From positions 1,391 through 65,390 of the forward strand of contig CAZETJ010000002.1 of the NCBI GenBank assembly GCA_964514575.1: a DNA stretch of 64,000 bases, read 5' to 3'. The notes beneath the pieces were generated by a model that worked only from the letters and a program-made list of their open reading frames with translations, did no database searches and was not told where the DNA came from. The position numbers and the translations under genes are program-made. This DNA is from an uncultured Candidatus Saccharibacteria bacterium. GTDB taxonomy: Bacteria > Patescibacteriota > Saccharimonadia > Saccharimonadales > UBA10212. Position 1 is the stretch's first letter; each line of letters starts with the position of its first letter. This document shows positions 109 to 63,785 of this stretch, piece after piece.

Positions 109-130
109 AATACTTAACTAGTTAAGTATT
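109..130. repeat. Perfect 22-bp palindrome AATACTTAACTAGTTAAGTATT (motif family copy 1)
   Basis: Read directly and self-complementary. Intergenic, between the VIT gene stop and the next minus-strand start. Confidence 0.9.
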
Positions 131-5581: not shown

Positions 5582-6268
5582 TCAAACGGTATGACGTGTC
5601 TCTTTGGTTGGAGAATTATCTAAAGATTGCCACAAGTACCAGCAGGCAACCGATTCGTAGGGATGCCACTTATTTTTATTAGCGATGGTGATGATCTGTT
5701 CAGGAGTCGGTAGCTTGCTTGTCCCGTTAGAAATTCCTTGACTAGTTAAGGAATTTTTTATGGGATAAAGTTTCTGGATGGCTTTGCGGATACCAAGATC
5801 GCCAACCGGCAAAACATCCAGCCGGCCGAGGCCGAACATCATAAACATGTGCGCGCTCCACTCGCCGATACCTTTGACGGCTGTCAATTGTTCTATTAAC
5901 TGGTCGTTAGGCATGGTGCTGATATGATCTAGGTCGAGTCGGCCGTCAATAATGTGCTGCGCCAAATCTTTCATGTAGCCGACTTTCGGCCAACTACAGC
6001 CGGCGTCGCGCAGTTTCTGACCGTCAATTCTGAGCAGCTGCTCAGGCGTGGGCATCTTGTCGTCAAACAGCGCCAAGACCCGGCGCCAAATGGTGCCGCC
6101 GGCTTTAGCCGACAACTGCTGGCCAACGATGGAACCGACCAGCTCGCCATAATAATCTTTGTGCGGTTTCAGGCGGCACGGTCCGCTGGATTTTATTACC
6201 GGCGCTAATTTTTTATCAACCTTAACTAAGTAAACTTCGGCGGCTCGCAGTTTTTGGGCAAATGTCAT
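5582..6268 (-). CDS. HhH-GPD DNA glycosylase (AlkA / 3-methyladenine glycosylase II-like)
   Basis: LTAVKGIGEWSAHMFMMFGLGRLDVLPVGDLGIRKA is the helix-hairpin-helix plus catalytic Asp region. Start trimmed to MTFAQKL (6268). Confidence 0.8.
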   Translation of the reverse strand: MTFAQKLRAAEVYLVKVDKKLAPVIKSSGPCRLKPHKDYYGELVGSIVGQQLSAKAGGTIWRRVLALFDDKMPTPEQLLRIDGQKLRDAGCSWPKVGYMKDLAQHIIDGRLDLDHISTMPNDQLIEQLTAVKGIGEWSAHMFMMFGLGRLDVLPVGDLGIRKAIQKLYPIKNSLTSQGISNGTSKLPTPEQIITIANKNKWHPYESVACWYLWQSLDNSPTKETRHTV

Positions 6269-6870: not shown

Positions 6871-7622
6871 TTGATATCAAATTCCAGGACCAAGGCTTTA
6901 TGGTCGGACACGAGCTCGTTTGAAGCGGTGAAGCTTTTGACTTCTATTTCTTTGCTAACAAAAATATAATCGCAAACCTCTATCTTCCGCGTCAGTTGGG
7001 TGCGCGTTGTCCTCAATTCGTACTTTATAGATAGATTCTCTAAGTGATTATTGATCTGCTCAAGAGATTTACTATCTGGCGTAAGGTTAAAATCACCAGT
7101 CAGAATAATTGGTCCACTGAGCCTCTTAATATATTCAGTGATTTGTTTCATCTGCCGCAGGGTACCAGCATCCCCGTTCTTATGTTCCGGGATGTGATGT
7201 CCGTGGTGGTTTAAAACATGCAGAGACTGCCCATTTAAAGACACCTGGACATGCTGAAGATTTCTGACATTATAATCATCGATATCAAAATCGAAGCCAC
7301 TTTTATGGGCTTTGTTGGTAAATATAGTTTCTTGTTTTTCGAAGGGTAGGGTTGAAATGATGGCATTCCCGAAATGAGCCTCCTTAGTCATAAATTTGAA
7401 AGAGAACATAGCCGAATGAAAAAGATAAGTTGGCTTTTGCCAGCAAGCCTGCAAGCCCTCTATTGACTTAAAAATTGCTCCGTTGCCATTGATACTAATC
7501 GCTTCTTGAAAGCAGGCAATGTCCGGTTGCTGATCGGAAAAAAAGAACATCAGTGGATTCTCTAGCCGGCCGCCATAGATATTTGCTTGAACTAGCTTCA
7601 CGCAAACCTTCCGCGTAGCCAC
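6867..7622 (-). CDS. Endonuclease/exonuclease/phosphatase (EEP) family protein
   Basis: CFQEA, LTGDFN and VSDHKALV motifs. Confidence 0.8.
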   Translation of the reverse strand: MATRKVCVKLVQANIYGGRLENPLMFFFSDQQPDIACFQEAISINGNGAIFKSIEGLQACWQKPTYLFHSAMFSFKFMTKEAHFGNAIISTLPFEKQETIFTNKAHKSGFDFDIDDYNVRNLQHVQVSLNGQSLHVLNHHGHHIPEHKNGDAGTLRQMKQITEYIKRLSGPIILTGDFNLTPDSKSLEQINNHLENLSIKYELRTTRTQLTRKIEVCDYIFVSKEIEVKSFTASNELVSDHKALVLEFDIN

Positions 7623-8890
7623 TCGTCGAGGGAACCAGAACCGCCGGCGGACAGGGCAATGACTAAATCGCCGGCCGCGGCGTGTTGTTTAATTTTTCGG
7701 GCAAGCGAATCGTCAAGTTCGGCAGCCTCGGCGTGCTGCTTTGACTCATTACTTAACATGTTAAGTAATTTGTCAGGGGTCAGGAGTTCCAAATCTTTAT
7801 TCTCACGCGCTAAGTAACTCGGCACTATATAAAACTGTTTTACGTTGTCAAACAATTTCTCTAACTCGTCTTTTATAAAATGCTGGCGGGTGTTATGCAG
7901 GCCTTCGTAGATTACGACGACATTATCACCAGCGACTTCATGTGCCGTGGCGAGAGCTCCGCGGATCTTAGGCGGCGTATGCGCATAATCGCTGTATATA
8001 TTGGGAGCGACTTGCTCGAAGCGGCGCGACAATCCAGGAAAATCGTTCAAAATTTCTAGATTCTTTTCCAAAGGAAAATTGGGCAATCGAGCGAAGGTTT
8101 GGGCGACTAACCAAGCATCCAGGCGGTTAACGCGCCCGACCAACCTCAACTTTTGGTCAATTGCCGGATCGCCATCGTCTAAGATCAAAAACTTGTCATC
8201 TTGCTCCAGGGCTAATGCCTCGGCGTCTGAGTGCCACAAAGTGGCTCGCTCGGATTGATCCAAAAATTCCCGGAAAGCGTCAAAGTAAGATTCGCGGGTC
8301 GGGTAAATATCGGGATGGTCCCAATCTAAACCCGAGATTAGAGCCATGTGGGGATAAAAACTTAGGAAATTGCGGTCGAACTCATCTGCCTCATAAATAA
8401 AATATTCGCTGTCTGCCTCCAGGTGGCCCATATCGCCAAAGCTGATTTTAGCCCCAACTGACCAGGCTGCCTTGACCCCAAGTTTTTGGGCTAACCAAAT
8501 GGCCATGGCAGTGGTTGTGGTCTTACCGTGAGTTCCGGATACCGCGATTAGCTTCAGACCCTTGTCGCTTATCAATTGGCTAAGAAATTCATCGCGACGG
8601 CTAGCTTTAATACCGTGTGTTTCACAAAATTTCAACTCCGGATGGTCAGGCTCAGTTTTTGGCAGGGCAGAACTGTAAACAAACCAGTCAATCGGCTTGG
8701 CGGCATATACTTTGGCGATAGCCTCGGCCGTTTGGCCGATGTGGATATCGCTAACACCCTGTTTTTTCAGGCTGTCGATATAGCTGCTGTCTTTGGCGTC
8801 CGAACCGCTGACCTCGTAGCCAGCCTGTTTAGCGATCAGCGCCAGCGGGCCGATACCAGTCCCGCCAATGCCAGAAAAGAAGATGTGCAT
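7598..8890 (-). CDS. Mur ligase family protein (MurC/Mpl-like)
   Basis: IFFSGIGGTGIGPLA Rossmann start and the VSGTHGKTTTTAM P-loop. Confidence 0.85.
   Translation of the reverse strand: MHIFFSGIGGTGIGPLALIAKQAGYEVSGSDAKDSSYIDSLKKQGVSDIHIGQTAEAIAKVYAAKPIDWFVYSSALPKTEPDHPELKFCETHGIKASRRDEFLSQLISDKGLKLIAVSGTHGKTTTTAMAIWLAQKLGVKAAWSVGAKISFGDMGHLEADSEYFIYEADEFDRNFLSFYPHMALISGLDWDHPDIYPTRESYFDAFREFLDQSERATLWHSDAEALALEQDDKFLILDDGDPAIDQKLRLVGRVNRLDAWLVAQTFARLPNFPLEKNLEILNDFPGLSRRFEQVAPNIYSDYAHTPPKIRGALATAHEVAGDNVVVIYEGLHNTRQHFIKDELEKLFDNVKQFYIVPSYLARENKDLELLTPDKLLNMLSNESKQHAEAAELDDSLARKIKQHAAAGDLVIALSAGGSGSLDEWLRGRFA
7748..7769. repeat. Perfect 22-bp palindrome ATTACTTAACATGTTAAGTAAT (motif family copy 2, inside the Mur ligase gene)
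   Basis: Read directly. Encodes LLNMLSN on the minus strand. Confidence 0.9.
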
Positions 8891-10746: not shown

Positions 10747-11508
10747 ATGTCCGTAATCCTGGAGGTCGACAACCTGCAGAAGTCTTATGGAGGCCGCAAG
10801 GTCGTCAAGGGTATTAGCTTTGACGTCGCTCAAGGCGAGGTTTTCGGAATCCTCGGCCCCAACGGCGCTGGCAAAACCACTACCCTGGAAATGATTGAGA
10901 CCCTGCGCGAGATTGACGGCGGCCATGCTCGTATCAACGGTATCGACGTGGAAAAACAGCCTCAGAAAATTCGCTATATGATTGGCGTCCAGACCCAATC
11001 GACGGCGTTCATGGATAAGGTCAAGTTGACGGAACTGCTGGAGCAGCAGGCCGCCGCTTACGGCGAGCGGGTTGATACACACGAGCTTTTGAGGGACGTC
11101 AATCTGGACGATAAGGCCGATTCATATATAGAGAACTTAAGCGGCGGCCAAAAACAACGTTTCTCGATCGCCGCCGCGCTAGTCCACAACCCAACGGTAT
11201 TCTTCATGGATGAGCCCACGACCGGGCTTGACCCTAAGGCCCGGCGCAACTTGTGGGAGCTGGTTCAGAAAATTAACCAAAAAGGTAAGGGCACGACCAT
11301 CATTTTGACGACCCATTATATGGAAGAGGCCGAAGTGCTATGCGATCGCGTGGCAATCATGGACGAAGGCAAAATCGTAGCCATGGATACGCCGGCCGAC
11401 TTGGTCCAAAAGCTGCTCAAGAAGGGTTTCAAAAAGGCGCGCAAAGTTGAACAAGCCAATCTTGAGGATGTTTTCTTGAATCTGACAGGCAAGGAGCTCG
11501 GCCGATGA
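10747..11508 (+). CDS. ABC transporter ATP-binding protein (ABC-2/DrrA-like)
   Basis: GPNGAGKTT, LSGGQKQRF, FFMDEPTTGLD. Start trimmed to MSVILEV. Confidence 0.93.
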   Translation: MSVILEVDNLQKSYGGRKVVKGISFDVAQGEVFGILGPNGAGKTTTLEMIETLREIDGGHARINGIDVEKQPQKIRYMIGVQTQSTAFMDKVKLTELLEQQAAAYGERVDTHELLRDVNLDDKADSYIENLSGGQKQRFSIAAALVHNPTVFFMDEPTTGLDPKARRNLWELVQKINQKGKGTTIILTTHYMEEAEVLCDRVAIMDEGKIVAMDTPADLVQKLLKKGFKKARKVEQANLEDVFLNLTGKELGR

Positions 11509-12737
11509 AAATCTTCTGGGTTGTTGTACTGGTTTTGGTTATTGCGCGCATTGGCTGGCGTATCTCACGCCTGGTTCGCAAAAATCAGCCAAAGGCTCAA
11601 CCCGCCAGACCTAAGTCCAATAAAGATTTGAGCCAGCACCAACGCAATCTATTTACCATTTGGGTTTTTGCCAAAATTAGCGTTAAGCGCTACTTCCGCG
11701 ATCGGCTGGCCCTGTTCTTCACGGTAGCTTTTCCACTGATATTCCTCTTGGTCTTTGGCAGTCTTAGCAAAGGTAGCGGCGTAACTTTTCATGTCGGCTT
11801 AATCAATCAAGGGGGCAGCGCCTTCTCCCAGAAATTTATTAATGAAATTAACACTAACAAATCCTTCAATGTGGACAAGACCGTTACTAGCCTAGCAACC
11901 GCCAAGGATAAAATGAGCAAAAGTGAAATTGATGCGACTATTGTTTTGCCATCGGATTTCGGTGCTGTTAAAGACAATTTGCCGGCCGGCCAGGCACAGA
12001 TTTATTTCGACGAAAACAACGTCCAGGCCGCGCAGACTATTAGCTCGGTGGTTCAGGGGCAGCTTGATGGCGTCAACACTCAGCTGATAAAAGTTAAACC
12101 GCCGTTTAGCGTCAAAAATGTCTCGACCAATACCGGCGGATTATCTAAGTTAGACTACACTGTTTCGGGGTTGCTCGGCTTCTCAATAATTGGCCTCGGT
12201 ATCTTCGGCCCGGTTAATTATTTCCCGGAGATGAAAAAGCAGGGGGTCTTGCGGCGCCTGCACATCACGCCGCTGAGAGTCTGGCAGTTCTTTGTGTCCA
12301 GTGTTATATCTAACGCTATCATCGGATTGTTCTCGATCGGTATCATGATCGGCGTGGCCGCCGCGCTATTCCATTTCAAAATGGTGGGCAATTACTTTGA
12401 ATTAGCGACCTTTATCACATTGGGCATTTTATGTATTTTTGGCATAGGACTGGCGATCGGCGGCTGGGCTCGCAATGAGCGCCAAGCTGCGCCGCTGGCC
12501 AACGTAATTGTTTTTCCGATGATGTTTTTATCTGGTACTTTCTTTCCACGCTATGCGATGCCGGAATGGCTGCAGCACGTCAGTGCTTACTTACCCCTGA
12601 CTCCAGTAATCGACGGCATCAGAATGATCGCGACCGAGGGCAAGCATCTAACGCAGATTGGTCCACAGCTGGGCTGGGTGGCAATCTGGACAATTATTAT
12701 TTATGCCATCGCGTTCCGCGTTTTCCGCTGGGAATAA
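11505..12737 (+). CDS. ABC-2 type transporter permease
   Basis: ATGA overlap with the ATPase. N-terminal TM, large loop and six C-terminal TM segments. Confidence 0.8.
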   Translation: MKIFWVVVLVLVIARIGWRISRLVRKNQPKAQPARPKSNKDLSQHQRNLFTIWVFAKISVKRYFRDRLALFFTVAFPLIFLLVFGSLSKGSGVTFHVGLINQGGSAFSQKFINEINTNKSFNVDKTVTSLATAKDKMSKSEIDATIVLPSDFGAVKDNLPAGQAQIYFDENNVQAAQTISSVVQGQLDGVNTQLIKVKPPFSVKNVSTNTGGLSKLDYTVSGLLGFSIIGLGIFGPVNYFPEMKKQGVLRRLHITPLRVWQFFVSSVISNAIIGLFSIGIMIGVAAALFHFKMVGNYFELATFITLGILCIFGIGLAIGGWARNERQAAPLANVIVFPMMFLSGTFFPRYAMPEWLQHVSAYLPLTPVIDGIRMIATEGKHLTQIGPQLGWVAIWTIIIYAIAFRVFRWE

Positions 12738-12799: not shown

Positions 12800-12935
12800 T
12801 GGTCGTTCGGTCTTCAGACAAAAGTGAACCTGCGGGACTTCTCGCTGACGCTCGTCGGAGAACACAAAAACCAATACTTAACTAGTCAAGTAATTTATAA
12901 GAGTATGAAAAAGCGCCTAGGCGCTGCGTAGGTTA
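12800..12935 (+). repeat. Segment X: decayed sequence paralogous to 52185-52355
   Basis: Colinear blocks: caaaa..gaacc..tgcgg..tcgct.gcgctc, then act.a.tagtcaag.a.t, then tgaaaag. The conceptual C-termini are also similar (YLTSQVIYKSMKKRLGAA versus GLISQALSSIEKKPRLC). Confidence 0.35.
12873..12895. repeat. Motif family copy 3, AATACTTAACTAGTCAAGTAATT (imperfect)
   Basis: Read directly. Intergenic, next to high-GC island 2. Confidence 0.8.
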
Positions 12936-30988: not shown

Positions 30989-31044
30989 TTGATTTTTCGG
31001 GTTAAAAAACAGATAATGTAAGGTGTTAAATTTCCCTATAGTTT

Positions 31045-31163
31045 AACCCAATTTTGCAAATCGGGGGTCTAGTAACCGTTTACAAAATTGAGAGGAGCGA
31101 CATAGCGCTAAGCCGAAGCTTTTACGAAACAGTAAAACGAGGAAAGCGCGTAAGTCGCGACGA
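31045..31163 (+). ncRNA. Structured tRNA 5' leader, copy A
   Basis: P0 31052-60/31079-87; box GAGAGGAG 31090-97; P1 GCGAC 31097-101 / GTCGC 31154-58; TAAGCCGAAGC; P2 31120-25/31132-37; GACGA 31159-63. Confidence 0.6.
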
Positions 31164-34165: not shown

Positions 34166-34804
34166 ATGAGATTATTTTTATCAAGCGAGAACCTGGGCGA
34201 ATACCCAGAAGCATTTATTGAGCTGGTCGGCGACAACAACAAGCTGGCCTTTATCGAAAATGCTAAAGACGACTGGACGCTTGATGATCGTACCGCTAAA
34301 CTCCAAGAGCACAAGCATCAGTTCAGACAGCTTGGCTTTGACGTTCATGAGCTAGACCTTAGAGATTTCTTTGGTAAAGCCGATAAGCTAGACAATTGGC
34401 TAAAAGATTTTGGTGGCGTGTTCGCTGCCGGTGGAAATTCATTTATACTACGTCGCGCCATGGCCCAAAGCGGTCTAGACAAGATCCTGATAAAACGGAC
34501 GAAAGATGACTCCGTAGCTTACGGCGGTTCAAGCGCTGGGAGCATAGTCGTTACGCCAAGCTTAAGGGGTAGCGAACATGGTGATTATCCTGATGTTGTG
34601 CCCAAAGGCTACGATAAAAAAATAATTTGGAAAGGGCTAAGCCTGGTCCCGTTTTATGTCGTGCCGCACTACAAGTCGAGTTGGTGGGGCGAGGAGGCTG
34701 ACATTATGGTCCGGAAACTCAAGGCCAAGGACTCACGCCATTACAAATTGCGAGACGGACAAGTCATAGTCGTTGAGGCTGGTAAAATCGAGTATCTAAA
34801 ATGA
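34166..34804 (+). CDS. Peptidase S51 (dipeptidase E-like)
   Basis: GGNSFILRRAM and GGSSAGSIV (Ser nucleophile context). Confidence 0.7.
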   Translation: MRLFLSSENLGEYPEAFIELVGDNNKLAFIENAKDDWTLDDRTAKLQEHKHQFRQLGFDVHELDLRDFFGKADKLDNWLKDFGGVFAAGGNSFILRRAMAQSGLDKILIKRTKDDSVAYGGSSAGSIVVTPSLRGSEHGDYPDVVPKGYDKKIIWKGLSLVPFYVVPHYKSSWWGEEADIMVRKLKAKDSRHYKLRDGQVIVVEAGKIEYLK

Positions 34805-34805
34805 G

Positions 34806-34874
34806 TCCCGTTAAAGCTAAGTATTTTTATAAAATCTGCCGGTTCGCTTGGCAGCGAGCCGGAGCTCTAACGGG
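34806..34874. mobile_element. MITE-like element, copy 1 (13-bp terminal inverted repeats, flanked by ATGAG/ATGAG)
   Basis: TCCCGTTAAAGCT ... AGCTCTAACGGG(A). Inner hairpin CTGCC/GGCAG. About 80% identical to 50887-50964. Confidence 0.6.
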
Positions 34875-35351
34875 ATGAGAATTATCGGCATCGATCCAGG
34901 CACGGGTATTCTGGGGTTTGGGATTATCGAGGCCGAAGGCGACAAATTCCACTTGGTGGATGGTGGAGTTATCCGAACGCCGGTTAAAGAAGACGATGCT
35001 GTGCGTCTGCAGACTATCTTCGAAGAACTGACCGATATCATTGCCGAGACTAAGCCCGAAGAAATGGCCGTCGAGAAATTGTTTTTTGCCCAAAATGTTA
35101 CTACCGCCATGACGGTCGCCCAGGCCCGCGGCGTAGTTTTGCTAGCAGCCAAGCAAGCCGGCCTAAAAATTTCGGAGTACACACCTCTCCAAATTAAGCA
35201 GGCGCTGACCGGCTACGGCCGGGCCGAAAAAAAGCAGGTCCAGGAGATGGTGCGGGTGATGTTGGGACTAAAAGAGATTCCAAAGCCAGACGATTGCGCC
35301 GATGCTCTGGCCGCTGCCATCTGTCATTCGCAGTCGGTTAAGGTAAAATAA
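34875..35351 (+). CDS. ruvC: Holliday junction resolvase RuvC
   Basis: MRIIGIDPGTGILGFGIIE ... EKLFFAQN ... DCADALAAAICH. Confidence 0.93.
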   Translation: MRIIGIDPGTGILGFGIIEAEGDKFHLVDGGVIRTPVKEDDAVRLQTIFEELTDIIAETKPEEMAVEKLFFAQNVTTAMTVAQARGVVLLAAKQAGLKISEYTPLQIKQALTGYGRAEKKQVQEMVRVMLGLKEIPKPDDCADALAAAICHSQSVKVK

Positions 35352-36421: not shown

Positions 36422-37390
36422 ATGAGTTTTTTGCAAGGGCTGCCTAGGCTGTTTTTTGTTTTGGCGCCGATGGACGATGTCACAGATACCGTTTTTAGAC
36501 AGATCGTGGCGGACTGCGCCAGGCCGGATTTATTCTTTACTGAATTTGTGAACGTCGATGGCTTAGCTAGCCCTGGTCGGAAAAAACTCTTGCCAAAATT
36601 GTGGTTCGATAAAAAGGAACAGCCCATCGTCGCCCAACTATGGGGGCTTAAACCGGACAATTTTTATAAAGCCACCAAAGACCTAAAAAAAATGGGTTTC
36701 GCCGGAGTGGATCTAAATATGGGCTGTCCGGTCAAAACCGTCATCAAAAACGGCGCCTGCGCCGCGCTCATTGATAATCGGGAGCTCGCGGGTGAGATTA
36801 TCCAGGCGACACAAAAAGCGGCCGGCAAGGATTTTCCGGTCAGCGTCAAAACCAGAGTTGGCTTTAAAGAGATCGACATGAGCTGGATAGAATTCCTGTT
36901 ATCAAAAAAACTTAACATGTTAAGTATTCATGGACGGACGGCTAAACAACTATCCAAAGTTCCGGCTGATTGGGGGCTCATAGGTCAATCCCGCGAGCTG
37001 CGCGACAAGCTGTCGCCCAGCACTCTGCTGGTTGGCAACGGCGATGTCAGCAGTCGTTCTGAGGGGCTAGCTCTGGCAAAGAAACATAAACTTGACGGTA
37101 TAATGCTCGGCCGGGGCATTTTTCATGACCCGTTTATTTTTGCCAATTCGCCGGATGGCGAAAGTCCGTGGCAAGCATGGACCAAGCAGCAAAAACTGGA
37201 GCTATTTTCACGCCACATTAAACTTTATCTGCAGACCTACAAGAACAATGAGCGTAAATTTGAGGCTCTGCGAAAATTTTGCAAAGTTTATATCAACGGC
37301 TTTGATGGAGCCAGCGAGCTGCGTGCCAAATTTATGGAAACACATACCCCAGACCAAGCACTAGCATTGTTGGCAAAGGACTTAATTTAA
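36422..37390 (+). CDS. dus: tRNA-dihydrouridine synthase
   Basis: LAPMDDVTDTVFR ... GVDLNMGCP ... TIM-barrel Dus motifs. Confidence 0.9.
   Translation: MSFLQGLPRLFFVLAPMDDVTDTVFRQIVADCARPDLFFTEFVNVDGLASPGRKKLLPKLWFDKKEQPIVAQLWGLKPDNFYKATKDLKKMGFAGVDLNMGCPVKTVIKNGACAALIDNRELAGEIIQATQKAAGKDFPVSVKTRVGFKEIDMSWIEFLLSKKLNMLSIHGRTAKQLSKVPADWGLIGQSRELRDKLSPSTLLVGNGDVSSRSEGLALAKKHKLDGIMLGRGIFHDPFIFANSPDGESPWQAWTKQQKLELFSRHIKLYLQTYKNNERKFEALRKFCKVYINGFDGASELRAKFMETHTPDQALALLAKDLI
36910..36925. repeat. Motif family copy 4, ACTTAACATGTTAAGT (16-bp palindrome inside dus)
   Basis: Read directly. Encodes LNMLS. Confidence 0.8.
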
Positions 37391-38571: not shown

Positions 38572-38646
38572 CGCGGGGTGGAGCAGTAGTAGCTCGCATG
38601 GCTCATAACCATGAGGTCGCAGGTGCAAATCCTGCCCCCGCTACCA
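38572..38646 (+). tRNA. Initiator tRNA-fMet (CAU)
   Basis: CGCGGGGTGGAGCAG start with an unpaired 1:72 position (C:U). CCA encoded. Confidence 0.88.
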
Positions 38647-38797: not shown

Positions 38798-38822
38798 GGT
38801 GCAAATCCTGCCCCCGCTACCA
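38798..38822 (+). repeat. 25-nt exact direct repeat of the tRNA-fMet 3' end (GGTGCAAATCCTGCCCCCGCTACCA)
   Basis: Identical to 38622-38646. Confidence 0.9.
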
Positions 38823-50429: not shown

Positions 50430-50885
50430 GTGACCGCAACAAACCATGCCATAACCGGCGCAGTGATCGCTGTTACTTTTAGTTCGCCGTGGTTGGCGCT
50501 GCCGGCGGCTTTGCTGTCACATTTTGTACTAGACGCTGTTCCGCATTGGGACTATCAACTGAAGCTTGCCGCGAAGCGAGCCGTAATGGCGGGTGATCTT
50601 TTACTAGCGGCCATAATTATTTTGGCGGTCGCTTTCTTTGCCGGTACGTTCAACGCGCCGGTTTGGGTGATTGTAGCCTGCGGCGCGCTGGCTGTGGTGC
50701 CCGATGCTATGTGGCTGCCGCATATCTTACGCGGCCGGCCAATTCCCATGGGTGACGACAGGCCGCTTTACTACGCTAGGCGATTTCACCGCTGGATTCA
50801 GTGGAGCGAGACAAAGCGATTGGGTATTTTAACTGAGTCTGTTTGGCTGGCGGCCATGGTTATAATTCTGTTTCAGTCGAAATGA
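50430..50885 (+). CDS. Membrane protein resembling YdjM/DUF457 metal-dependent hydrolases
   Basis: MTATNHAITGAVIA...LSHFVLDAVPHWDY and four TM segments. Confidence 0.5.
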   Translation: MTATNHAITGAVIAVTFSSPWLALPAALLSHFVLDAVPHWDYQLKLAAKRAVMAGDLLLAAIIILAVAFFAGTFNAPVWVIVACGALAVVPDAMWLPHILRGRPIPMGDDRPLYYARRFHRWIQWSETKRLGILTESVWLAAMVIILFQSK

Positions 50886-50886
50886 A

Positions 50887-50964
50887 TCCCGTTAGAGCTA
50901 AGTATTTTATCAAAGATAAAATCTGCCGCATATCTAGCCGGCAGTTATGCGGAGCTCTAACGGG
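50887..50964. mobile_element. MITE-like element, copy 2 (perfect 13-bp terminal inverted repeats, flanked by ATGAA/ATGAA)
   Basis: TCCCGTTAGAGCT ... AGCTCTAACGGG(A). Inner hairpin CTGCCG/CGGCAG. Confidence 0.6.
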
Positions 50965-51561
50965 ATGAAAATTACGGCCCTCAAGCAGCAGGTTAAAAAT
51001 CCGGGACGGGTTAGTATTTTTGTCAATGAGAAATACAGTTTTTCACTGACCATTAACCAGGTGGCTGACTACGGGGTCAAAAAAGATCTAGAAATATCCG
51101 AGGCCGAGCTTAAGAACTTCAAAAAAATGTCCGAAGACGGCAAGCTGGCAGCGCGGGCTCTCGAGTGGGTGCTCAACCGGCCGCATTCAGTCCGTGAGTT
51201 CAAGGATTACATGTACCGCAAAAAGGCCGAGCCGGAACTGGCCGGAAAGTTGATCGAGGAGTTCGGGGCAAAGGGTTACCTAAACGACGAAGCCTACGGC
51301 CGATGGTTGATCGAGCTAAGGGCTAGGACCGGCAAAAGTAACCGGGCGATGAGCGCCGAGCTTTTTGCCAAAGGATTGGATAGGGAAGTCATTGGTCAGA
51401 TTCTAGAAGAGCAGGAGGCCAGCGAGGCGGAACGACTACGGGTACTAGTAGCCAAGAAACGACCACTCTCCCGATATAAAAATGATGACCCAAAGCTTAT
51501 AAAATACTTAACTAGTCAAGGATTCTCTTACGACCTAGTTAAGCAAGAGTTAAATACTTAA
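50965..51561 (+). CDS. recX: RecA regulator RecX
   Basis: Three-repeat helical protein following recA. Start trimmed to MKITALKQQ. Confidence 0.8.
   Translation: MKITALKQQVKNPGRVSIFVNEKYSFSLTINQVADYGVKKDLEISEAELKNFKKMSEDGKLAARALEWVLNRPHSVREFKDYMYRKKAEPELAGKLIEEFGAKGYLNDEAYGRWLIELRARTGKSNRAMSAELFAKGLDREVIGQILEEQEASEAERLRVLVAKKRPLSRYKNDDPKLIKYLTSQGFSYDLVKQELNT
51502..51524. repeat. Motif family copy 5, AAATACTTAACTAGTCAAGGATT (inside recX)
   Basis: Read directly. Confidence 0.8.
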
Positions 51562-51576
51562 CTAGTTAAGTATTTA
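51551..51576. repeat. Perfect 26-bp palindrome TAAATACTTAACTAGTTAAGTATTTA (motif family copy 6)
   Basis: Read directly. Contains the recX stop codon. Lies between convergent genes. Confidence 0.9.
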
Positions 51577-51601: not shown

Positions 51602-52123
51602 TTACGTTGCCGGAGCCGCAGCGAATTCTGGCGCGTCGGCCGTCACTTCCGTGTCTCGTACCAGTATGTAGCTGTCCGTTACTTCCAGTATCTGCGTTCT
51701 GTCTATAATCAGAGTGCTTTGGGTGGCTAGAATTTTGGTTACCGGCCGGGCGACATAAAGTTTTTGAACAAACATGCCTTCGTTATAACTGTAGTCATTG
51801 ATCTTGCCGAGTTTACTGCGCTTGGTCCTGACGGTTTTGCCAAGTAAGTCAAATTTAATATCTAAAATTTCGCGATGGCGGACAAGGTCCGAGGGCGAAC
51901 TTAGTACGTCTTCATCGTTGACGGCTAGGCCTTCGCTGGAAGCTTGGCGGATATCTTCAATCAGCAGGATTTTTGGTTCCGGGTGGCCGGACTCTTTGCA
52001 CCACCAGCCTAAAATCTTAAGATTGTGCGGGTTAATCACCGGAGTTTTGGCAATGGCTATCGCCCCGCCCAAACGCAGGCTGACAACCGGCTGGTTCATC
52101 AATGTGGCGCTTAATCTAAGCAT
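51602..52123 (-). CDS. PRC-barrel domain protein (two repeats)
   Basis: The LMNQPVVSLRLGGAIAIAKTPVINPHNLKILGWW pattern is repeated. Confidence 0.5.
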   Translation of the reverse strand: MLRLSATLMNQPVVSLRLGGAIAIAKTPVINPHNLKILGWWCKESGHPEPKILLIEDIRQASSEGLAVNDEDVLSSPSDLVRHREILDIKFDLLGKTVRTKRSKLGKINDYSYNEGMFVQKLYVARPVTKILATQSTLIIDRTQILEVTDSYILVRDTEVTADAPEFAAAPAT

Positions 52124-54411: not shown

Positions 54412-54829
54412 ATTAGCCGGCGGCGAAGTTATAGAACTGCGCTCCGATTTGGGAGGCGGCAAAACAACTTTCGTAAAAGGCCTGGCTAAAGGCGCCGGCA
54501 GTTACGACCAAGTCGCTAGCCCAACCTTCACGCTCAAGCGGATTTATAAAACTCCAAAACTTCAAATTTTTCACTACGATTTTTATCGGCTGAGCGAGCC
54601 GGGCATTTTACACGAAGAATTGGCTGAATCTATCAGCGACCCAAAGGCCGTGACCGTGATTGAGTGGTCCGATATCGTCAAAGATGTTCTGCCCACGGAT
54701 CACTTAGCAGTTGAATTTATACCGACGGCTAGTAATTCCGAAGAGCGCCAGATAACTATTAGCTACCCGGAAAATTGGCAAGGAATTATGCGCGAGATAG
54801 AAACACAGTGGCAGGAGAGTCAGCCATGA
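54332..54829 (+). CDS. tsaE: tRNA t6A biosynthesis ATPase TsaE
   Basis: LRSDLGGGKTTFVKGL ... VASPTFTL. The only in-frame ATG gives an 80-nt overlap with the LTD gene. Confidence 0.8.
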   Translation: MSTELTWQTISTGSGDTTRLGELLGSKLAGGEVIELRSDLGGGKTTFVKGLAKGAGSYDQVASPTFTLKRIYKTPKLQIFHYDFYRLSEPGILHEELAESISDPKAVTVIEWSDIVKDVLPTDHLAVEFIPTASNSEERQITISYPENWQGIMREIETQWQESQP

Positions 54830-55215
54830 AAATACTAACGATCAGAACAGACAAACCAAAGGCAGAGCTAGGGGTATATGACGGCCAAAAGAAATTAGCT
54901 TATATAAAGTGGCTGGCCGACCGGCAGCTGGCCGAAACCATTCATACTAAAATCTCAGAAATACTTAACAAGTCAAGTATTTTGCAAGATGACCTGCGGG
55001 GAATAGCTGTATTCAAAGGTCCGGGCAGTTTTACGGGTTTGCGGATCGGTTTATCCGTCGCCAATGCCCTGGCCTACTCGCTGAGCATCCCTATCGTTGC
55101 CGCTGACGGCAAGAATTGGGCTTCCCAGGCCATAAAAAAATTAGAAACAGGTAAGAACGATAAAATTGCTTTGCCTGAGTACGGCGCGCCGGCCAGAACC
55201 ACGCTCCAACGCTAA
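54826..55215 (+). CDS. tsaB: tRNA t6A biosynthesis protein TsaB (short form)
   Basis: ATGA overlap with tsaE. GPGSFTGLRIGLSVANALAYSL. Confidence 0.85.
   Translation: MKILTIRTDKPKAELGVYDGQKKLAYIKWLADRQLAETIHTKISEILNKSSILQDDLRGIAVFKGPGSFTGLRIGLSVANALAYSLSIPIVAADGKNWASQAIKKLETGKNDKIALPEYGAPARTTLQR
54959..54982. repeat. Motif family copy 7, AAATACTTAACAAGTCAAGTATTT (inside tsaB)
   Basis: Read directly. Encodes ILNKSSI. Confidence 0.8.
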
Positions 55216-58189: not shown

Positions 58190-58340
58190 GACTAGAGTTT
58201 ATACTACCTCAGCGGTTAAAAGGTAAACTTTTGATATATAGCTTTGCGCCGAGAAAACTATTTTTCTACAATGACTGTACTTTCTCGGGCTCTGCATATA
58301 ATTCTCACTTATCGCTCGAATTATAATTACCTCCTAAATA

Positions 58341-58456
58341 AAACCAATTTTGCAAGCTAGGCACCGATGCTTGTAAAATTGAGAGGAGTAACTTAGCACT
58401 AAGCCGAAGCTTTTGATTCACTAACCAAAACGAGGCAAATGCGCAAGTTATGACGA
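58341..58456 (+). ncRNA. Structured tRNA 5' leader, copy B
   Basis: P0 58348-57/58369-78; GAGAGGAG 58381-88; P1 TAACTT 58389-94 / AAGTTA 58445-50; TAAGCCGAAGC 58400-10; P2 58411-30; GACGA 58452-56. Confidence 0.65.
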
Positions 58457-60495: not shown

Positions 60496-60834
60496 ATGGA
60501 TAAAGATTTTTTGGTGGTTACAACCACCACAAACGACATACCAGGCTACAAAATAACCAAAGTCTACGGCGAGGTTTTTGGCCTGATAGTCAGGAGCCGC
60601 AACCTATTTAGTAATATCGGAGCGGGCTTCCGCACGGTTTTTGGAGGAGAAGTTCGTGGCTACACCAAGCTTTTGAGTGACAGCCGCGAGCAGGCCATTG
60701 AGCGAATGTGCGAAGAGGCTAAGTCGAGAGGCGCCAACGCTGTTGTCGCTATGAACTTCGATTCTGGCGGCATGGGCAATATCATGAACGAGGTCGCCGC
60801 TTACGGCACGGCCGTCAAAGTCGAAAAAATCTAA
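60496..60834 (+). CDS. YbjQ/UPF0145 family protein
   Basis: GGGGAG SD. GYKITKVYGEVFG...GGEVRGYTKLL...ANAVVAM. Confidence 0.88.
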   Translation: MDKDFLVVTTTTNDIPGYKITKVYGEVFGLIVRSRNLFSNIGAGFRTVFGGEVRGYTKLLSDSREQAIERMCEEAKSRGANAVVAMNFDSGGMGNIMNEVAAYGTAVKVEKI

Positions 60835-62357
60835 GCTTCGTGAGCAATAGTGATGTGGGCACCGAGCGAATTAAGCCGCTCGGCCAAATCTTCATACCCG
60901 CGGTTGATCGTATAAATATTACGCAACATCGATGTGCCTTCGGCAGCCATCATGCCTATTAAAAGAATCACTGCTGGTCGTAAGCCACTCGGTGCCACCA
61001 CCTCGCCGGCCCGCCATTTAGTTGGACCATTAATAAAAACGCGGTGCGGATCAGCCAGCTCAAGATCGACGCCGATCTTCTTCATCTCGGTATACATCAG
61101 TGCCCGGTCTTCGTAAACCCAGTCATGAATCAAGGTGCGGCCCTTGGCTACCGCGGCAATTGGCACAAAGTAGGGCAGGTTATCGATATTGATTCCTGAA
61201 CCTCCCGCCAGAGGGTGTAGTTTTTCCTCTGGCGCCTTAAGCTCGCCGTTATGTTTATAGATTGTAATATCCGCTAGGTCAGCATAGCCATTGTCAGATT
61301 TGTATGGCTCGCTGAGTTTTATGCGCAGCCCCATCATCTTAAGTTTGAGCAGTTCCAAATCAAGAAAATCAATCGGCGCTCGCTTGATGGTGATCTGCGA
61401 GTTGGTTGTAACGGCTGCTGAAATAAATGTCATGGCTTCCACTGGATCTTCGGTTGGCGTATAGCTTACATTTCGTTTAATGGTTTTGGTGCCGCGGATT
61501 TTCAGCGTTGGTGTGCCAATGCCCTCGATTTTAACGCCCAGTTTCTGCAGGAAGAAACAGACATCCTGGACCTGGTAGTTGGCGCTGGCCTGTTTAATAA
61601 TGGTCTGGCCTTCGATTCGCGCGGCAGCCAGTATGGCATTCTCGGTCGCCACGTCGCTCATTTCATACATGACTACTGGCGAAGTCGGTAACTTGCGGCG
61701 GACAGAGATTTGGTAATGGCCATTATGGGCTTCGATCTGGGCGCCAAATTCAGCTAGGGCATAAATATGCGGGATGATTGTCCGCCGGCCCAGTTCGCAG
61801 CCGCCGGCATAGGGAATTTTAAATTCGGAATGTTCATGCATTAGCGCTCCGGTCAGCAAAATAACGATGCGAGTTTTACGGGCAGATTCTTTATTCATTT
61901 GATCGAGCCTGAGCGTAGTTGGTGGTTTGATTTCCAGCTCATTGCCAGGCAGCCACCGGATATGGACTCCGATGCTAGTTAAGACTTCGATGATCCGGTT
62001 CACTTCTTCAATTCTTGGCACGCGTTTAAGCCGGGTGGTGCCGTGGTTCAAAAGGCTGGCGCAGAGCAGGGCGACTGCGGCGTTTTTGGAAGTTTTAACT
62101 TCGATCTCGCCGGATAGCGAATGGCCGCCTTCAATCTGAAGGTTAATGCCGCTGCTACCCAAAGAGATAATCTGCTTATTAAGTACTCTGCTAATACGAC
62201 CGATTGTCTCCAGGCTGAGGTTTTGTTTGCCGTGCTCCATACGGTTGACGGCCGACTGGCTAGTGCCGAGCTGCCTGGAGAATTCTGCCTGAGTTAGGCC
62301 CTTCTCTTGTCTAATCTGTGCAATCAATTGGCCTATTTGCTGGTTTGTTTCCTGCAT
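60831..62357 (-). CDS. murA: Fusion of an XRE-type HTH domain and UDP-GlcNAc 1-carboxyvinyltransferase (MurA)
   Basis: N-terminus IRQEKGLTQAEFSRQLGTSQSAVNRMEHG. Then the MurA fold: KTSKNAAVALLCASLL and the AGGCELGRR active-site Cys loop. Confidence 0.8.
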   Translation of the reverse strand: MQETNQQIGQLIAQIRQEKGLTQAEFSRQLGTSQSAVNRMEHGKQNLSLETIGRISRVLNKQIISLGSSGINLQIEGGHSLSGEIEVKTSKNAAVALLCASLLNHGTTRLKRVPRIEEVNRIIEVLTSIGVHIRWLPGNELEIKPPTTLRLDQMNKESARKTRIVILLTGALMHEHSEFKIPYAGGCELGRRTIIPHIYALAEFGAQIEAHNGHYQISVRRKLPTSPVVMYEMSDVATENAILAAARIEGQTIIKQASANYQVQDVCFFLQKLGVKIEGIGTPTLKIRGTKTIKRNVSYTPTEDPVEAMTFISAAVTTNSQITIKRAPIDFLDLELLKLKMMGLRIKLSEPYKSDNGYADLADITIYKHNGELKAPEEKLHPLAGGSGINIDNLPYFVPIAAVAKGRTLIHDWVYEDRALMYTEMKKIGVDLELADPHRVFINGPTKWRAGEVVAPSGLRPAVILLIGMMAAEGTSMLRNIYTINRGYEDLAERLNSLGAHITIAHEA

Positions 62358-62507
62358 TTGCCTCAATAGCTTACCACATATGGTAAGCCCCCTCAATCTC
62401 TCTTAATCCTTACCGAGTGGCTTTAGGTGAGTAGTGATACAATAATTTAATGATCTAGCTACCTCAACTTCACGAAATATATAAAGTGAAATAGAGGAGT
62501 TATTAAA

Positions 62508-63785
62508 ATGGACGATAAACAAGTAGCGGCGCTAATCGCCGGCGAGGAAAAAAGGCAACGTGAGGGCTTAGAGCTAATCCCCTCTGAGAACTATGTCAGC
62601 CGGGACGTGCTCAATGCTTTGGGCAGTGTTTTTACTAATAAATACTCCGAGGGTTATCCAGGCAGGCGTTATTACGGCGGCCAAGACTTTACGGATAAGG
62701 TCGAGACGCTGGCTATCGAGCGGGCAAAAAAACTGTTCGGTGCCGACCACGCCAATGTCCAGCCACATTCCGGGGCGCCAGCTAACATCGCGGTGTATTT
62801 TGCTTGGCTGGAGCCAGGCGACACAGTTTTAGGGATGAGGCTCGACCATGGCGGACACCTGACCCATGGGCATCCGGTTACTACTATGGCCAAACTTTAC
62901 AACTTCGTACGCTACGGTATCAAGGACGTAGAAACTGGCGAGATTGATTACGACGAGATGCGTCGCGTTGCCCTCAAAGAAAAACCTAAAATAATCCTGG
63001 CCGGCTTCTCTGGCTATCCACGCAACTTGGACTACGCTAAGTTCGCTGAAATCGGCAACGAGGTTGGTGCTCTGCTGATGGCTGACATGGCTCACATAGC
63101 TGGCTTGATTGCCGGCAAAGCCCTGCCGAACCCGTTCGATTTTGGGTTCCAAGTGATCACGACTACTACGCACAAAACTCTGCGCGGTCCGCGCGGGGGT
63201 ATGATCTTGACGAAGGGCACGGTTGGCAACCCGCTTAAACCGGTCGAGAAAACGCTAGAAAATCTGCCCACGTTGATTGACCGTGAAGTTTTCCCAGGCT
63301 TCCAGGGCGGCCCGCACATGAACAACACAGCTGCCAAAGCCATAACTTTTGGAGAAGCTCTTAAGCCAGAGTTCAAAACTTACGCTAAGCAAATACTCGT
63401 TAACGCTAAAACACTTGCCGACGAAATGATGAGCCGCGGCTTTAAACTGGTGACTAACGGTACCGACAATCACTTGATCATGGCCGATGTCCACACTAGC
63501 TTTGGGGTAGATGGCAGGGAAGTGCAGGATATTCTTGATAAGATCGGCTTATCCGCAAACTGCAACTCTATACCCAACGATGTTCTGCCGCCGTTTCGAC
63601 CTAGCGGACTGAGGCTCGGCACTCCAGCCATGACTACTCGTGGTTTAAAAGAAAAAGACATGGCCCAAATTGCGCAGTGGATGGCCCAAGCTATCAAGAA
63701 TCGTAAAGACGATAAAATACTTAACAAGTTAAGTAATGAAGTCCGGGAGTTCAGCCTAAAATTCCCATTACCCAGCGACCAGTAA
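62508..63785 (+). CDS. glyA: Serine hydroxymethyltransferase
   Basis: AGAGGAG SD. LIPSENYVS ... TTTTHKTLRGPRGG (PLP lysine). Confidence 0.97.
   Translation: MDDKQVAALIAGEEKRQREGLELIPSENYVSRDVLNALGSVFTNKYSEGYPGRRYYGGQDFTDKVETLAIERAKKLFGADHANVQPHSGAPANIAVYFAWLEPGDTVLGMRLDHGGHLTHGHPVTTMAKLYNFVRYGIKDVETGEIDYDEMRRVALKEKPKIILAGFSGYPRNLDYAKFAEIGNEVGALLMADMAHIAGLIAGKALPNPFDFGFQVITTTTHKTLRGPRGGMILTKGTVGNPLKPVEKTLENLPTLIDREVFPGFQGGPHMNNTAAKAITFGEALKPEFKTYAKQILVNAKTLADEMMSRGFKLVTNGTDNHLIMADVHTSFGVDGREVQDILDKIGLSANCNSIPNDVLPPFRPSGLRLGTPAMTTRGLKEKDMAQIAQWMAQAIKNRKDDKILNKLSNEVREFSLKFPLPSDQ
63715..63737. repeat. Motif family copy 8, AAATACTTAACAAGTTAAGTAAT (inside glyA)
   Basis: Read directly. Encodes ILNKLSN. 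Confidence 0.8.

What the first reader, a model, noticed from the sequence alone, without database searches (positions are those of the whole stretch)
51502..51576. Over-represented palindromic motif ACTTAAC-N2-GTTAAGT (at least 8 copies in 64 kb), two of them 27 nt apart at the end of recX
The copies are:
- 109-130 (perfect 22 bp);
- 7748-7769 (perfect 22 bp);
- 12873-12895;
- 36910-36925 (perfect 16 bp);
- 51502-51524;
- 51551-51576 (perfect 26 bp, containing the recX stop);
- 54959-54982;
- 63715-63737.

The consensus is roughly AATACTTAAC(T/A)(A/T)GT(T/C)AAGTA(T/A)T. A specific motif of 16 nt or more is not expected even once by chance in 128 kb of two-strand sequence.

Five of the eight copies lie at or within about 170 nt of a gene's 3' end. 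The stems are too AT-rich to be ordinary terminators.

Possible roles, all inference:
- a DNA uptake signal (comEC and a type IV pilin are in this window, and known uptake sequences cluster at gene ends as inverted repeats);
- an operator for a dimeric regulator or nucleoid-associated protein;
- the ends of a small mobile element.

The MITE-like elements contain a related GCTAAGTATTT.
Basis: partly seen in the sequence, partly recalled or inferred. Interest (0 to 1): 0.6.

Follow-up and report, generated by a model that had tools for sequence, protein, structure and literature searches.

The report
Binding site of a MarR-family regulator
The repeated 22-bp palindrome is real and is most likely the DNA recognition site of a MarR-family regulator conserved across Saccharibacteria; unusually, most copies lie inside protein-coding genes, where they force the peptide (I/L)-L-N-x-L-S.

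Summary
There are 5 exact and 8 near-exact copies of ACTTAAC-NN-GTTAAGT in 64 kb, against 0 and 0.19 expected.

The window comes from a Saccharimonadales (Saccharibacteria/TM7) genome. The full motif is AAWT-ACTTRAC-WW-GTYAAGT-AWTT. A scan of 185,579 species genomes returned it overwhelmingly from Saccharibacteria.

The decisive clue is a ~140-aa MarR-family gene downstream of ksgA. I found five lineages of this gene by protein search alone, one of them the window's own genome 18 kb to the right. In all five the motif sits 7-38 nt upstream of the gene's start. The same palindrome also lies next to MarR genes in Bacteroidota, Bacillota and another Patescibacterium. Its core matches the published AdcR (MarR-family) box TTAACNRGTTAA.

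So it is a MarR-type operator, not a DNA-uptake signal, terminator or MITE end.

The unusual part is the distribution:
- About 60% of Saccharibacteria copies are intragenic, always in the single open frame.
- They occur in at least 35 protein families.
- recX is a hot spot, and the site's position within recX differs between lineages.

What the intragenic copies do is unresolved; a transcription roadblock or a nucleoid-type role are both possible.

The parts
109..130 (.). Motif copy 1, AATACTTAACTAGTTAAGTATT, a perfect 22-bp palindrome. It lies 14 nt after the stop of the VIT1 gene (141-854, minus strand). It is 36 nt upstream of the next minus-strand gene (129 aa), which lies just outside the window.
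5733..5754 (.). Weak related palindrome ATTCCTTGACTAGTTAAGGAAT, 3 mismatches to the core. Doubtful member.
7748..7769 (.). Motif copy 2, ATTACTTAACATGTTAAGTAAT. It lies inside the C-terminal domain of a Mur ligase (7598-8890, minus strand) and encodes LLNMLSN. It is 129 nt upstream of the start of the exonuclease III-like gene (6867-7622, minus strand).
12873..12894 (.). Motif copy 3, AATACTTAACTAGTCAAGTAAT (T-to-C variant). Intergenic, 139 nt after the ABC-2 permease gene (11505-12737).
36907..36928 (.). Motif copy 4, AAAACTTAACATGTTAAGTATT. It lies mid-gene in dihydrouridine synthase (36422-37390, plus strand) and encodes KLNMLSI just before the HGRT motif. The same site is present in the orthologue of locus L092.
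51503..51524 (.). Motif copy 5, AATACTTAACTAGTCAAGGATT (2 mismatches). It lies in the recX C-terminus, read in the other frame as KYLTSQGF. The T-to-C change removes the TAA stop. The same variant occurs in the RecX of L110.
51551..51576 (.). Motif copy 6, a perfect 26-bp palindrome TAAATACTTAACTAGTTAAGTATTTA. It supplies the recX stop codon (51559-51561) and sits at the convergent junction with gene 51602-52123. L129 has the same stop-spanning arrangement.
54960..54981 (.). Motif copy 7, AATACTTAACAAGTCAAGTATT. It lies inside tsaB (about 54826-55215, plus strand) and encodes ILNKSS. The orthologous site is present in L073, L110 and L121.
63716..63737 (.). Motif copy 8, AATACTTAACAAGTTAAGTAAT. 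It lies in the C-terminal tail of serine hydroxymethyltransferase (62508-63785, plus strand) and encodes ILNKLSN. It is about 150 nt upstream of the next gene (165 aa).
50947..51561 (+). recX, the gene that most often carries the motif across Saccharibacteria. Synteny is recA, then a 151-aa gene, then recX, followed by a conserved convergent gene of about 173 aa.
51602..52123 (-). Conserved convergent neighbour of recX (173 aa, no Pfam match). Its 3' end faces the paired sites.

Best explanation
The palindrome AAWT-ACTTRAC-WW-GTYAAGT-AWTT is the recognition site of a homodimeric MarR-family winged-helix regulator of about 140 aa. This regulator is conserved in Saccharimonadales.

In the window's own genome the gene lies about 18 kb to the right of the window. 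The local order is PGK, TIM, x, UvrD, G5, ksgA, [site], marR. The site there overlaps the regulator's own promoter or leader, 22 nt before the start codon. The protein therefore most likely represses itself and releases DNA when it binds a ligand that is still unknown. This is inferred from how the MarR family behaves.

The eight copies in the window are further high-affinity sites for the same protein.
- Three lie 36-155 nt upstream of a gene start (109-130, 7748-7769 and 63716-63737) and could act as ordinary operators.
- The others, including the pair at the recX stop, lie inside genes or at a convergent junction. Bound protein there can only act as a block to elongating or read-through RNA polymerase, or as a structural or nucleoid site.

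What is shown:
- the motif is real, and in the genome scan it came mostly from Saccharibacteria;
- it is linked to marR;
- DNA-level selection overrides codon and amino-acid choice.

What is inferred:
- that this MarR protein binds the motif;
- the mode of action at the intragenic sites.
For: 1. Enrichment. There are 5 exact and 8 near-exact copies against 0 and 0.19 expected. In the species-genome scan, 87 of 118 stretches came from MAGs labelled Saccharibacteria or Saccharimonadales (my tally). Loci from other phyla sit at chance level.

2. Neighbour clustering. Among the genes flanking the non-coding copies, the top recurrent neighbour is a MarR-family gene. The site lies 17-46 nt upstream of it in 5 species.

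3. Unbiased test. I found MarR homologues by protein search only and then fetched their DNA. All 4 lineages carry the motif 7-38 nt upstream of marR, with 0, 0, 1 and 2 mismatches. It is the only site with up to 2 mismatches in each ~20-kb locus.

4. A fifth lineage is the window's own genome. Locus L218 is 100% identical to the window's right flank over 9.77 kb. It carries AATACTTGACTAGTTAAGTATC 22 nt before a 142-aa MarR_2 gene.

5. The site follows marR, not ksgA. In L215 a NUDIX gene lies between ksgA and marR, and the site still sits next to marR.

6. Other phyla. Exact copies outside Saccharibacteria also lie next to MarR-family genes. In Cyclobacteriaceae and Fulvivirga two sites sit 23 nt upstream of marR. 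In Saprospiraceae there are two sites with a MarR gene about 1 kb away. In Bacillota and Sporomusa the site precedes an MFS-marR operon. In another Patescibacterium it lies 48 nt upstream of marR.

7. Core match. TTAAC-NN-GTTAA equals the published box of AdcR (TTAACNRGTTAA; PMC7012047). That AdcR belongs to the MarR family is from my own knowledge.

8. Dimer-site features. The flanks are symmetric and were not part of the search pattern: A at -2 in 83% and T at +19 in 87%. The commonest variants are the symmetric transitions ACTTGAC and GTCAAGT.

9. DNA-level selection. Every perfect intragenic copy uses the one open frame, giving [IL]LNxLS, across at least 35 protein families. The window has 4 LNxLS peptides against 0.5 expected, and 3 of them use exactly CTT-AAC-NNG-TTA-AGT.
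Against: - No binding experiment exists. The link to MarR rests on conserved adjacency.
- About 60% of copies are intragenic, and 8 intergenic copies lie between convergent genes. Classical promoter repression does not explain these.
- Only 25 of 109 sites have a gene start within 150 nt downstream, and those genes form no coherent regulon apart from marR.
- A few intergenic copies have long palindromic extensions of non-conserved sequence (L030, L049, L108, L114). A double-stranded DNA-binding site does not predict this.
- Site density differs about five-fold between this lineage and its relatives, and I cannot explain why.
Confidence: 0.8

Rival explanations
1. The sites are bound by the same MarR-family protein, but their main role is chromosomal rather than gene-specific. 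They would form a dispersed set of anchor sites for nucleoid organisation, division-site control or segregation. SlmA SBS, Noc NBS, RefZ RBM and MatP matS sites are the model: ordinary regulator families co-opted for such roles.
For: - Most sites are intragenic or at convergent junctions and show no promoter bias.
- There are tens of sites per genome, each a 16-22 bp palindrome.
- Orthologous intragenic positions are conserved across species: recX 13 species, folD 6, a class-I tRNA synthetase 5, tsaB 4.
- Sites were gained repeatedly at different positions within recX.
- DNA-level selection overrides the protein sequence.
Against: - No regional clustering could be shown. Leaving recX aside, only about 7% of sampled sites fall in gene families of this 64-kb window, which is about what a uniform spread would give (my tally).
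- No whole genome could be scanned.
- No partner protein is known.
- In other phyla the same palindrome is a plain local operator.
Confidence: 0.15
2. It is a DNA uptake signal, like the Neisseria DUS or the Haemophilus USS. A competence pilus or receptor would recognise it, and it would spread through biased uptake plus recombination.
For: - The distribution looks superficially like DUS/USS. Copies sit in coding regions in the tolerated frame, overlap stop codons, lie just after 3' ends and sit in a recombination gene (recX).
Against: - Density is 1 per 8 kb here and about 1 per 45 kb in relatives. Known uptake signals occur about once per kb (from my own knowledge).
- There are no extra copies in four ~20-kb marR loci, nor in the 10 kb to the right of the window.
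- The motif is a 7-2-7 palindrome tied to a cytoplasmic MarR gene in 5 of 5 lineages, and in unrelated phyla as well.
- I found no literature on uptake sequences in Saccharibacteria.
Confidence: 0.03
3. It acts at the RNA level. The palindrome would form a hairpin serving as an unusual terminator, an mRNA 3'-end stabiliser or an RNase site.
For: - About 40% of copies lie at or within roughly 20 nt of stop codons.
- A subset of intergenic copies has long extra palindromic arms of variable sequence, and some have T runs.
Against: - The hairpins are weak: -3.5 to -8 kcal/mol, and 0 for the 51506 copy.
- There is no T tract at the window copies, and the terminator scan does not call them.
- 60% of copies are mid-gene, where a terminator would do harm.
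- The stem sequence itself is conserved, rather than only its pairing.
- There is no Rfam match.
Confidence: 0.04
4. The copies are the ends or remnants of a small mobile element (MITE).
For: The sequence is repeated, palindromic and dispersed.
Against: - The copies share nothing beyond the 22-27 bp motif.
- Intragenic copies replace, rather than interrupt, normal protein sequence. Examples are FolD LLNKLSNDxxVHG and the tRNA-synthetase DHWILNKLSI.
- I saw no target-site duplications in the flanks listed.
Confidence: 0.01

Closest known systems
AdcR/ZitR operators (zinc-responsive MarR-family repressors of Streptococcus and Lactococcus; box TTAACNRGTTAA)
   Same: The 12-bp core TTAAC-NN-GTTAA is identical (PMC7012047). 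It is bound by a MarR-family dimer and lies in the regulator's own promoter region.
   Different: - The Saccharibacteria protein is closer to generic MarR and MepR structures (E 1e-17 to 1e-14) than to ZitR (5e-7).
- It has no invariant His, Cys or Glu positions.
- No zinc-uptake genes were seen next to sites.
- The motif here extends to 22 bp.
- The sites are mostly intragenic.
Classical MarR-family autoregulation (E. coli MarR/marO, S. aureus MepR)
   Same: The gene is a ~140-aa winged-helix gene. A palindromic site, sometimes duplicated, lies immediately upstream of its start. Half-site spacing suits a dimer. In Bacillota the same palindrome precedes an MFS-marR operon.
   Different: In Saccharimonadales there are tens of extra sites, mostly inside unrelated housekeeping genes, conserved across species and imposed on the protein sequence.
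Dispersed chromosomal palindromes bound by co-opted regulators (SlmA SBS, Noc NBS, RefZ RBM, MatP matS, RacA ram)
   Same: They are 12-20 bp palindromes, with tens of copies. They are often intragenic, conserved in position among relatives and unrelated to promoters.
   Different: No regional restriction or cell-biological role has been shown here. The binding protein belongs to a different family (MarR) and clearly has an autoregulatory operator.
DNA uptake sequences (Neisseria DUS, Pasteurellaceae USS)
   Same: A DNA motif is imposed on coding regions in tolerated frames, is enriched at gene ends, and is present in a recombination gene.
   Different: This motif is 10 to 50 times rarer. It is palindromic and is linked to a cytoplasmic regulator gene.

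Membership tests
MarR-family operator | A MarR-family winged-helix gene lies immediately next to a copy of the site | tested here: met
   Pfam MarR/MarR_2 scores are above the curated cut-off. The site lies 7-46 nt upstream of the gene in 10 Saccharibacteria lineages.
MarR-family operator | The site-gene linkage holds when loci are chosen without reference to the motif | tested here: met
   5 of 5 lineages found by protein search carry it (L209, L211, L213, L215, L218). It is the only site with up to 2 mismatches in ~20 kb for four of them.
MarR-family operator | A (pseudo)palindrome of 16-22 bp with half-sites about 9-10 bp apart, fitting a homodimer | tested here: met
   The architecture is 7-2-7, with symmetric conserved flanks and symmetric tolerated transitions.
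MarR-family operator | The protein binds the sequence directly, and a ligand relieves binding | not testable with these tools
   This needs EMSA, DAP-seq or ChIP.
AdcR/ZitR zinc-sensing subfamily | Box with the core TTAAC-NN-GTTAA | tested here: met
   The motif core is identical to the published AdcR box.
AdcR/ZitR zinc-sensing subfamily | Conserved His/Glu/Cys zinc ligands, with AdcR/ZitR as the closest relatives | tested here: not met
   The 5-sequence alignment has no invariant His, Cys, Glu or Asp. ZitR ranks well below generic MarR and MepR structures. The identity of the ligand residues is recalled from memory.
DNA uptake sequence (DUS/USS) | Hundreds to thousands of copies, about one per kb | tested here: not met
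   There are 10 copies in ~84 kb in this lineage. Relatives show 14 extra in 634 kb, and four marR loci totalling 80 kb show none.
DNA uptake sequence (DUS/USS) | Preferential uptake of motif-bearing DNA through a surface receptor | not testable with these tools
   This needs uptake or transformation assays.
Intrinsic terminator | A stable G+C-rich stem followed by a T tract | tested here: not met
   Folding energy is 0 to -8 kcal/mol. The terminator scan does not call the recX-end copies.
parS/ParB centromere | A ParB-type 16-bp palindrome related to TGTTNCACGTGAAACA, clustered near the origin | tested here: inconclusive
   The window has no canonical parS at up to 3 mismatches. The motif is unrelated in sequence and is linked to marR, not parB. 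The position of the origin is unknown.
MITE / mobile element ends | Shared internal sequence, terminal inverted repeats and target-site duplication | tested here: not met
   Only the palindrome itself is shared. Intragenic copies are in-frame substitutions.

The most novel reading that the evidence does not exclude
In Saccharimonadales a MarR-family regulator has acquired a genome-wide set of very high-information binding sites, tens per genome and perhaps about 100 in this lineage. Most are deliberately embedded in housekeeping coding sequences at the cost of the amino-acid sequence. They would serve a function that is not promoter control: either protein-roadblock termination in a genome poor in terminators, or nucleoid or division-site organisation of the SlmA/Noc/RefZ type. 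recX would be the conserved primary target.
Probability: 0.25. Interest if true: 0.7.

Novelty: new member of a known kind. Interest (0 to 1): 0.45.

Why it matters
- Almost nothing is known about transcriptional regulation in Saccharibacteria and other CPR bacteria. This result gives a concrete, testable pair of regulator and operator that is conserved across an order.
- It also yields a list of conserved target positions: marR itself, recX, folD, tsaB, glyA, dus, uvrD and a class-I tRNA synthetase.
- It is a clear example of a DNA-binding site shaping protein sequence, giving ILNxLS in at least 35 unrelated families.
- A 22-bp operator with a small ligand-responsive repressor could become a genetic switch for the Saccharibacteria that can now be transformed.
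- It removes a tempting but wrong reading, namely a first uptake sequence outside the Proteobacteria.

Tried and rejected
- **DNA uptake signal.** Rejected on density and on the link to MarR.
- **Canonical parS.** None in the window.
- **LexA/SOS box.** Considered because of recA-recX. No copy lies upstream of recA, and I did not pursue it.
- **Terminator or RNA hairpin.** The folds are weak, there is no T tract and no Rfam hit.
- **MITE.** No shared flanks.
- **Protein-level explanation** (a conserved ILNKLS peptide). Rejected. LNxLS is 8-fold over-represented in the window, and 3 of 4 occurrences use one specific codon set with a joint probability of about 5e-4.
- **AdcR orthology.** The core motif matches, but the protein does not.
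- **A homologue of the MarR gene inside the window.** None found.
- **Regional clustering.** Leaving recX aside, about 7% of sampled sites fall in gene families of this window, which is what a uniform spread would give.
- **Walking the genome.** This was limited to +10 kb, then +18 kb through a PGK homologue. The left side gave only 1.9 kb.
- **Literature.** I found nothing on this motif or on a Saccharibacteria MarR regulon.

Full report
**1. The observation**

The pattern ACTTAACNNGTTAAGT occurs 5 times exactly in the window, at 112, 7751, 36910, 51556 and 63719. It occurs 8 times with up to 2 mismatches, adding 12876, 51506 and 54963. Dinucleotide-preserving shuffles give 0.00 and 0.19.

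That one supplies the recX stop codon TAA at 51559-51561. A ninth, weak relative lies at 5733-5754. Orphan half-sites occur at chance frequency.

**2. Whose genome, and how widespread**

The window has 49% G+C. I scanned one genome for each of 185,579 species with TACTTAACNNGTTAAGTA. By my tally, 87 of these came from MAGs labelled Candidatus Saccharibacteria or Saccharimonadales, with G+C from 37% to 56%.

As a control I fetched recA-anchored metagenome loci. About 840 kb from other phyla held only four 2-mismatch hits, which is chance level. Three of the six Saccharibacteria-like loci each had a good site in recX. So in these scans the motif is concentrated in Saccharibacteria, and it is not a local duplication.

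In 93 exact Saccharibacteria copies the flanks are also conserved and symmetric, even though they were not part of the search pattern. Position -2 is A in 83% and -1 is A or T; position +19 is T in 87%. The centre is AA/TT in 53%, AT in 19% and AC/GT in 15%. The commonest departures are the symmetric transitions ACTTGAC and GTCAAGT. The full site is therefore AAWT-ACTTRAC-WW-GTYAAGT-AWTT. That is the signature of a dimeric DNA-binding protein.

**3. Where the copies sit**

I examined 109 sites with up to 2 mismatches, in 87 Saccharibacteria loci plus the window.
- 65 are inside ORFs.
- 13 overlap a stop codon, with the motif supplying the TAA.
- 31 are intergenic. Most of these lie 3-20 nt after a stop. 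Eight sit between convergent genes and four between divergent genes.

Every perfect intragenic copy is in the only frame without a stop, A|CTT|AAC|NNG|TTA|AGT. This gives [I/L]-L-N-x-L-S-[I/N].

The intragenic copies fall in at least 35 unrelated protein families, with recurrent orthologous positions:
- RecX around residue 95, in 13 species;
- FolD (LLNKLSNDxxVHG), in 6;
- a class-I tRNA synthetase (DHWILNKLSI), in 5;
- TsaB, in 4;
- Dus and SHMT.

These are substitutions within normal helices, not insertions. In the window, LNxLS occurs 4 times against 0.5 expected. Three of the four use exactly CTT-AAC-NNG-TTA-AGT, a codon set with a joint usage probability near 5e-4. Selection therefore acts on the DNA, and the protein follows.

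**4. The decisive link**

I clustered the genes that flank the non-coding copies. The top recurrent neighbour was a gene of about 140 aa, with the site 17-46 nt upstream of its start. It appeared in five species, just after ksgA. Pfam places all five in the MarR family, above the curated cut-offs.

To remove the ascertainment bias, I searched for homologues by protein alone; 2,166 scored E <= 1e-8. I then fetched the DNA for four diverse homologues. In all four the motif lies 7-38 nt upstream of marR, and it is the only site with up to 2 mismatches in each ~20-kb locus:
- L209: AATACTTAACACGTTAAGTATC, 0 mismatches;
- L211: AACACTTAACTTGTTAAGTGTT, 0 mismatches;
- L215: GATACTTGACTTGTTAAGTATC, 1 mismatch;
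- L213: AATGCTTAACACGTAAAGTTTT, 2 mismatches, and overlapped by a second core-type palindrome, CATTGACGCGTTAATG, read from the upstream sequence.

In L215 a NUDIX gene separates ksgA from marR, yet the site stays next to marR.

I then reached the same region in the window's own genome. Locus L218 is 100% identical to the window's right flank over 9.77 kb. It continues through PGK, TIM and UvrD (which has an intragenic 1-mismatch site), then G5 and ksgA, to a 142-aa MarR_2 gene. That gene has AATACTTGACTAGTTAAGTATC 22 nt before its start, about 18 kb right of the window's end. That makes five of five lineages. The chance of one such hit in a 150-nt region is about 5e-4.

**5. Independent corroboration from other phyla**

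The few exact hits outside Saccharibacteria are also MarR-associated, and all six neighbouring genes score as MarR/MarR_2 in Pfam:
- Cyclobacteriaceae (L021) and Fulvivirga (L076): two copies 30 nt apart, 23 nt upstream of a 159- or 163-aa MarR gene;
- Saprospiraceae (L105): two copies, with a MarR gene about 1 kb away;
- a Bacillota MAG (L112) and Sporomusa (L025): one copy 9-29 nt upstream of an MFS-MarR operon;
- another Patescibacterium (L016): one copy 48 nt upstream of a MarR gene.

The 12-bp core TTAAC-NN-GTTAA equals the published box of AdcR, TTAACNRGTTAA (PMC7012047); AdcR's MarR-family membership is from my own knowledge.

The Saccharibacteria protein is not an AdcR orthologue. Its best PDB relatives are generic MarR and MepR structures (E 4e-17 to 1e-14), while ZitR scores only 5e-7. 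No His, Cys or Glu column is invariant. Many of the ~154-aa homologues do carry a Cys/His-rich C-terminal tail.

**6. What it is and how it works**

The best-supported reading is that the palindrome is the operator of this MarR-family dimer. The protein represses its own gene from the ksgA-marR spacer. This step is inferred from family behaviour and from position.

The window's eight copies are further sites for the same protein. Three lie upstream of gene starts:
- 109-130: 36 nt upstream;
- 7748-7769: 129 nt upstream of the exonuclease III-like gene;
- 63716-63737: about 150 nt upstream.

These may be ordinary operators embedded in the preceding gene, as is usual in a compact genome.

The others cannot act on initiation. 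These are the copies in dus and tsaB and the pair at the recX stop facing a convergent gene. There, bound protein could block elongating or read-through polymerase, or serve a structural role.

The position within recX differs between lineages:
- residue ~95 in many species, plus L124 and L126;
- residues ~64 and ~95 in L071;
- the C-terminus and the stop in the window;
- the C-terminal copy in L110;
- the stop in L129;
- no site in L125, L127, L128 and L133.

Repeated gains at different positions argue for selection for a site somewhere in or near recX.

**7. Rivals**

*DNA uptake signal.* Density is 10 copies in ~84 kb here and about 1 per 45 kb elsewhere. There are no extra copies around four marR loci or in the 10 kb right of the window. 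The motif is palindromic and linked to a cytoplasmic regulator.

*Terminator or RNA element.* Hairpins fold at only 0 to -8 kcal/mol. There is no T tract, no terminator call and no Rfam match. A handful of intergenic copies have long, variable palindromic extensions, and I cannot fully explain these.

*MITE.* Nothing beyond the motif is shared.

*parS.* No canonical parS is present.

*Nucleoid-type role for the same protein.* This remains open, and I give it as the novel case.

**8. Novelty and limits**

I found no description of this motif, of uptake sequences in Saccharibacteria, or of a Saccharibacteria MarR regulon. The pair of regulator and operator is a new member of a well-known kind. 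Its mostly intragenic spread and the imprint it leaves on proteins are unusual.

The limits are these:
- there are no binding data;
- my gene calls are simple greedy ORFs;
- I cannot explain why this lineage has about five times more copies than its relatives.

Noticed in passing
window 34799-34884 and 50880-50974: A repeated, strongly structured intergenic element of about 85-95 nt. A 13-14-bp outer stem (TCCCGTTAGAGCT ... AGCTCTAACGGGA) encloses inner hairpins that differ in sequence between the two copies but still pair. Folding gives -34 and -43 kcal/mol (z -3.6 and -7.2). Each copy starts at the stop codon of the upstream gene and runs over the start of the next gene (recX for the second copy). 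There is no Rfam match. It contains GCTAAGTATTTT, which resembles one half-site of the palindrome.
   Followed up: partly
window 31029-31123 and 58325-58414: Two conserved stretches (74-90% identical) lie upstream of tRNA-Lys (31164) and tRNA-Pro (58457). They are probably a shared promoter or leader for tRNA genes.
   Followed up: no
window 38622-38646 and 38798-38822: An exact 25-nt duplicate of the 3' end of tRNA-Met (38572-38646) lies 176 nt downstream. It may be the scar of an integration or excision event.
   Followed up: no
L218 17263-18541 (same genome, about 18 kb right of the window end): This is the ksgA-[operator]-marR locus of the window's own genome. A further 1-mismatch copy lies inside uvrD/pcrA at L218 13857 and is conserved in the related contig L217.
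   Followed up: yes
proteins P0001, P0012, P0023, P0048, P0049 and others: The ~150-160-aa subgroup of the Saccharibacteria MarR family carries a Cys/His-rich C-terminal tail (for example MHxxxCxxxKxGACDHPF). This suggests metal or redox sensing. The window lineage's 142-aa protein lacks it.
   Followed up: no
L021 3131-3177, L076 3537-3582, L112 5315, L025 6723, L016 4122: The same palindrome occurs as single or double operators next to MarR-family genes in Bacteroidota, Bacillota and another Patescibacterium. In Bacteroidota a cysteine-synthase-like gene follows marR; in Bacillota an MFS transporter precedes it.
   Followed up: partly
L204 20231 onward versus L218 9770 onward: Two contigs from the same study are 100% identical for 9.77 kb and then diverge; the PGK proteins are only 78% identical. 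This is either a strain-level recombination boundary or an assembly chimera.
   Followed up: no
window 60831-62396 (minus strand): A gene of about 508-521 aa has an N-terminal HTH_3/XRE domain fused to an EPSP-synthase (MurA-like) domain, according to the precomputed Pfam hits on the matching contigs.
   Followed up: no
window 51602-52123 (minus strand) and 50430-50885 (plus strand): Two genes are conserved in synteny with recA and recX but have no Pfam match. One is the 151-aa gene between recA and recX. The other is the ~173-aa gene convergent with recX, present in 12 of 15 recX loci examined.
   Followed up: partly
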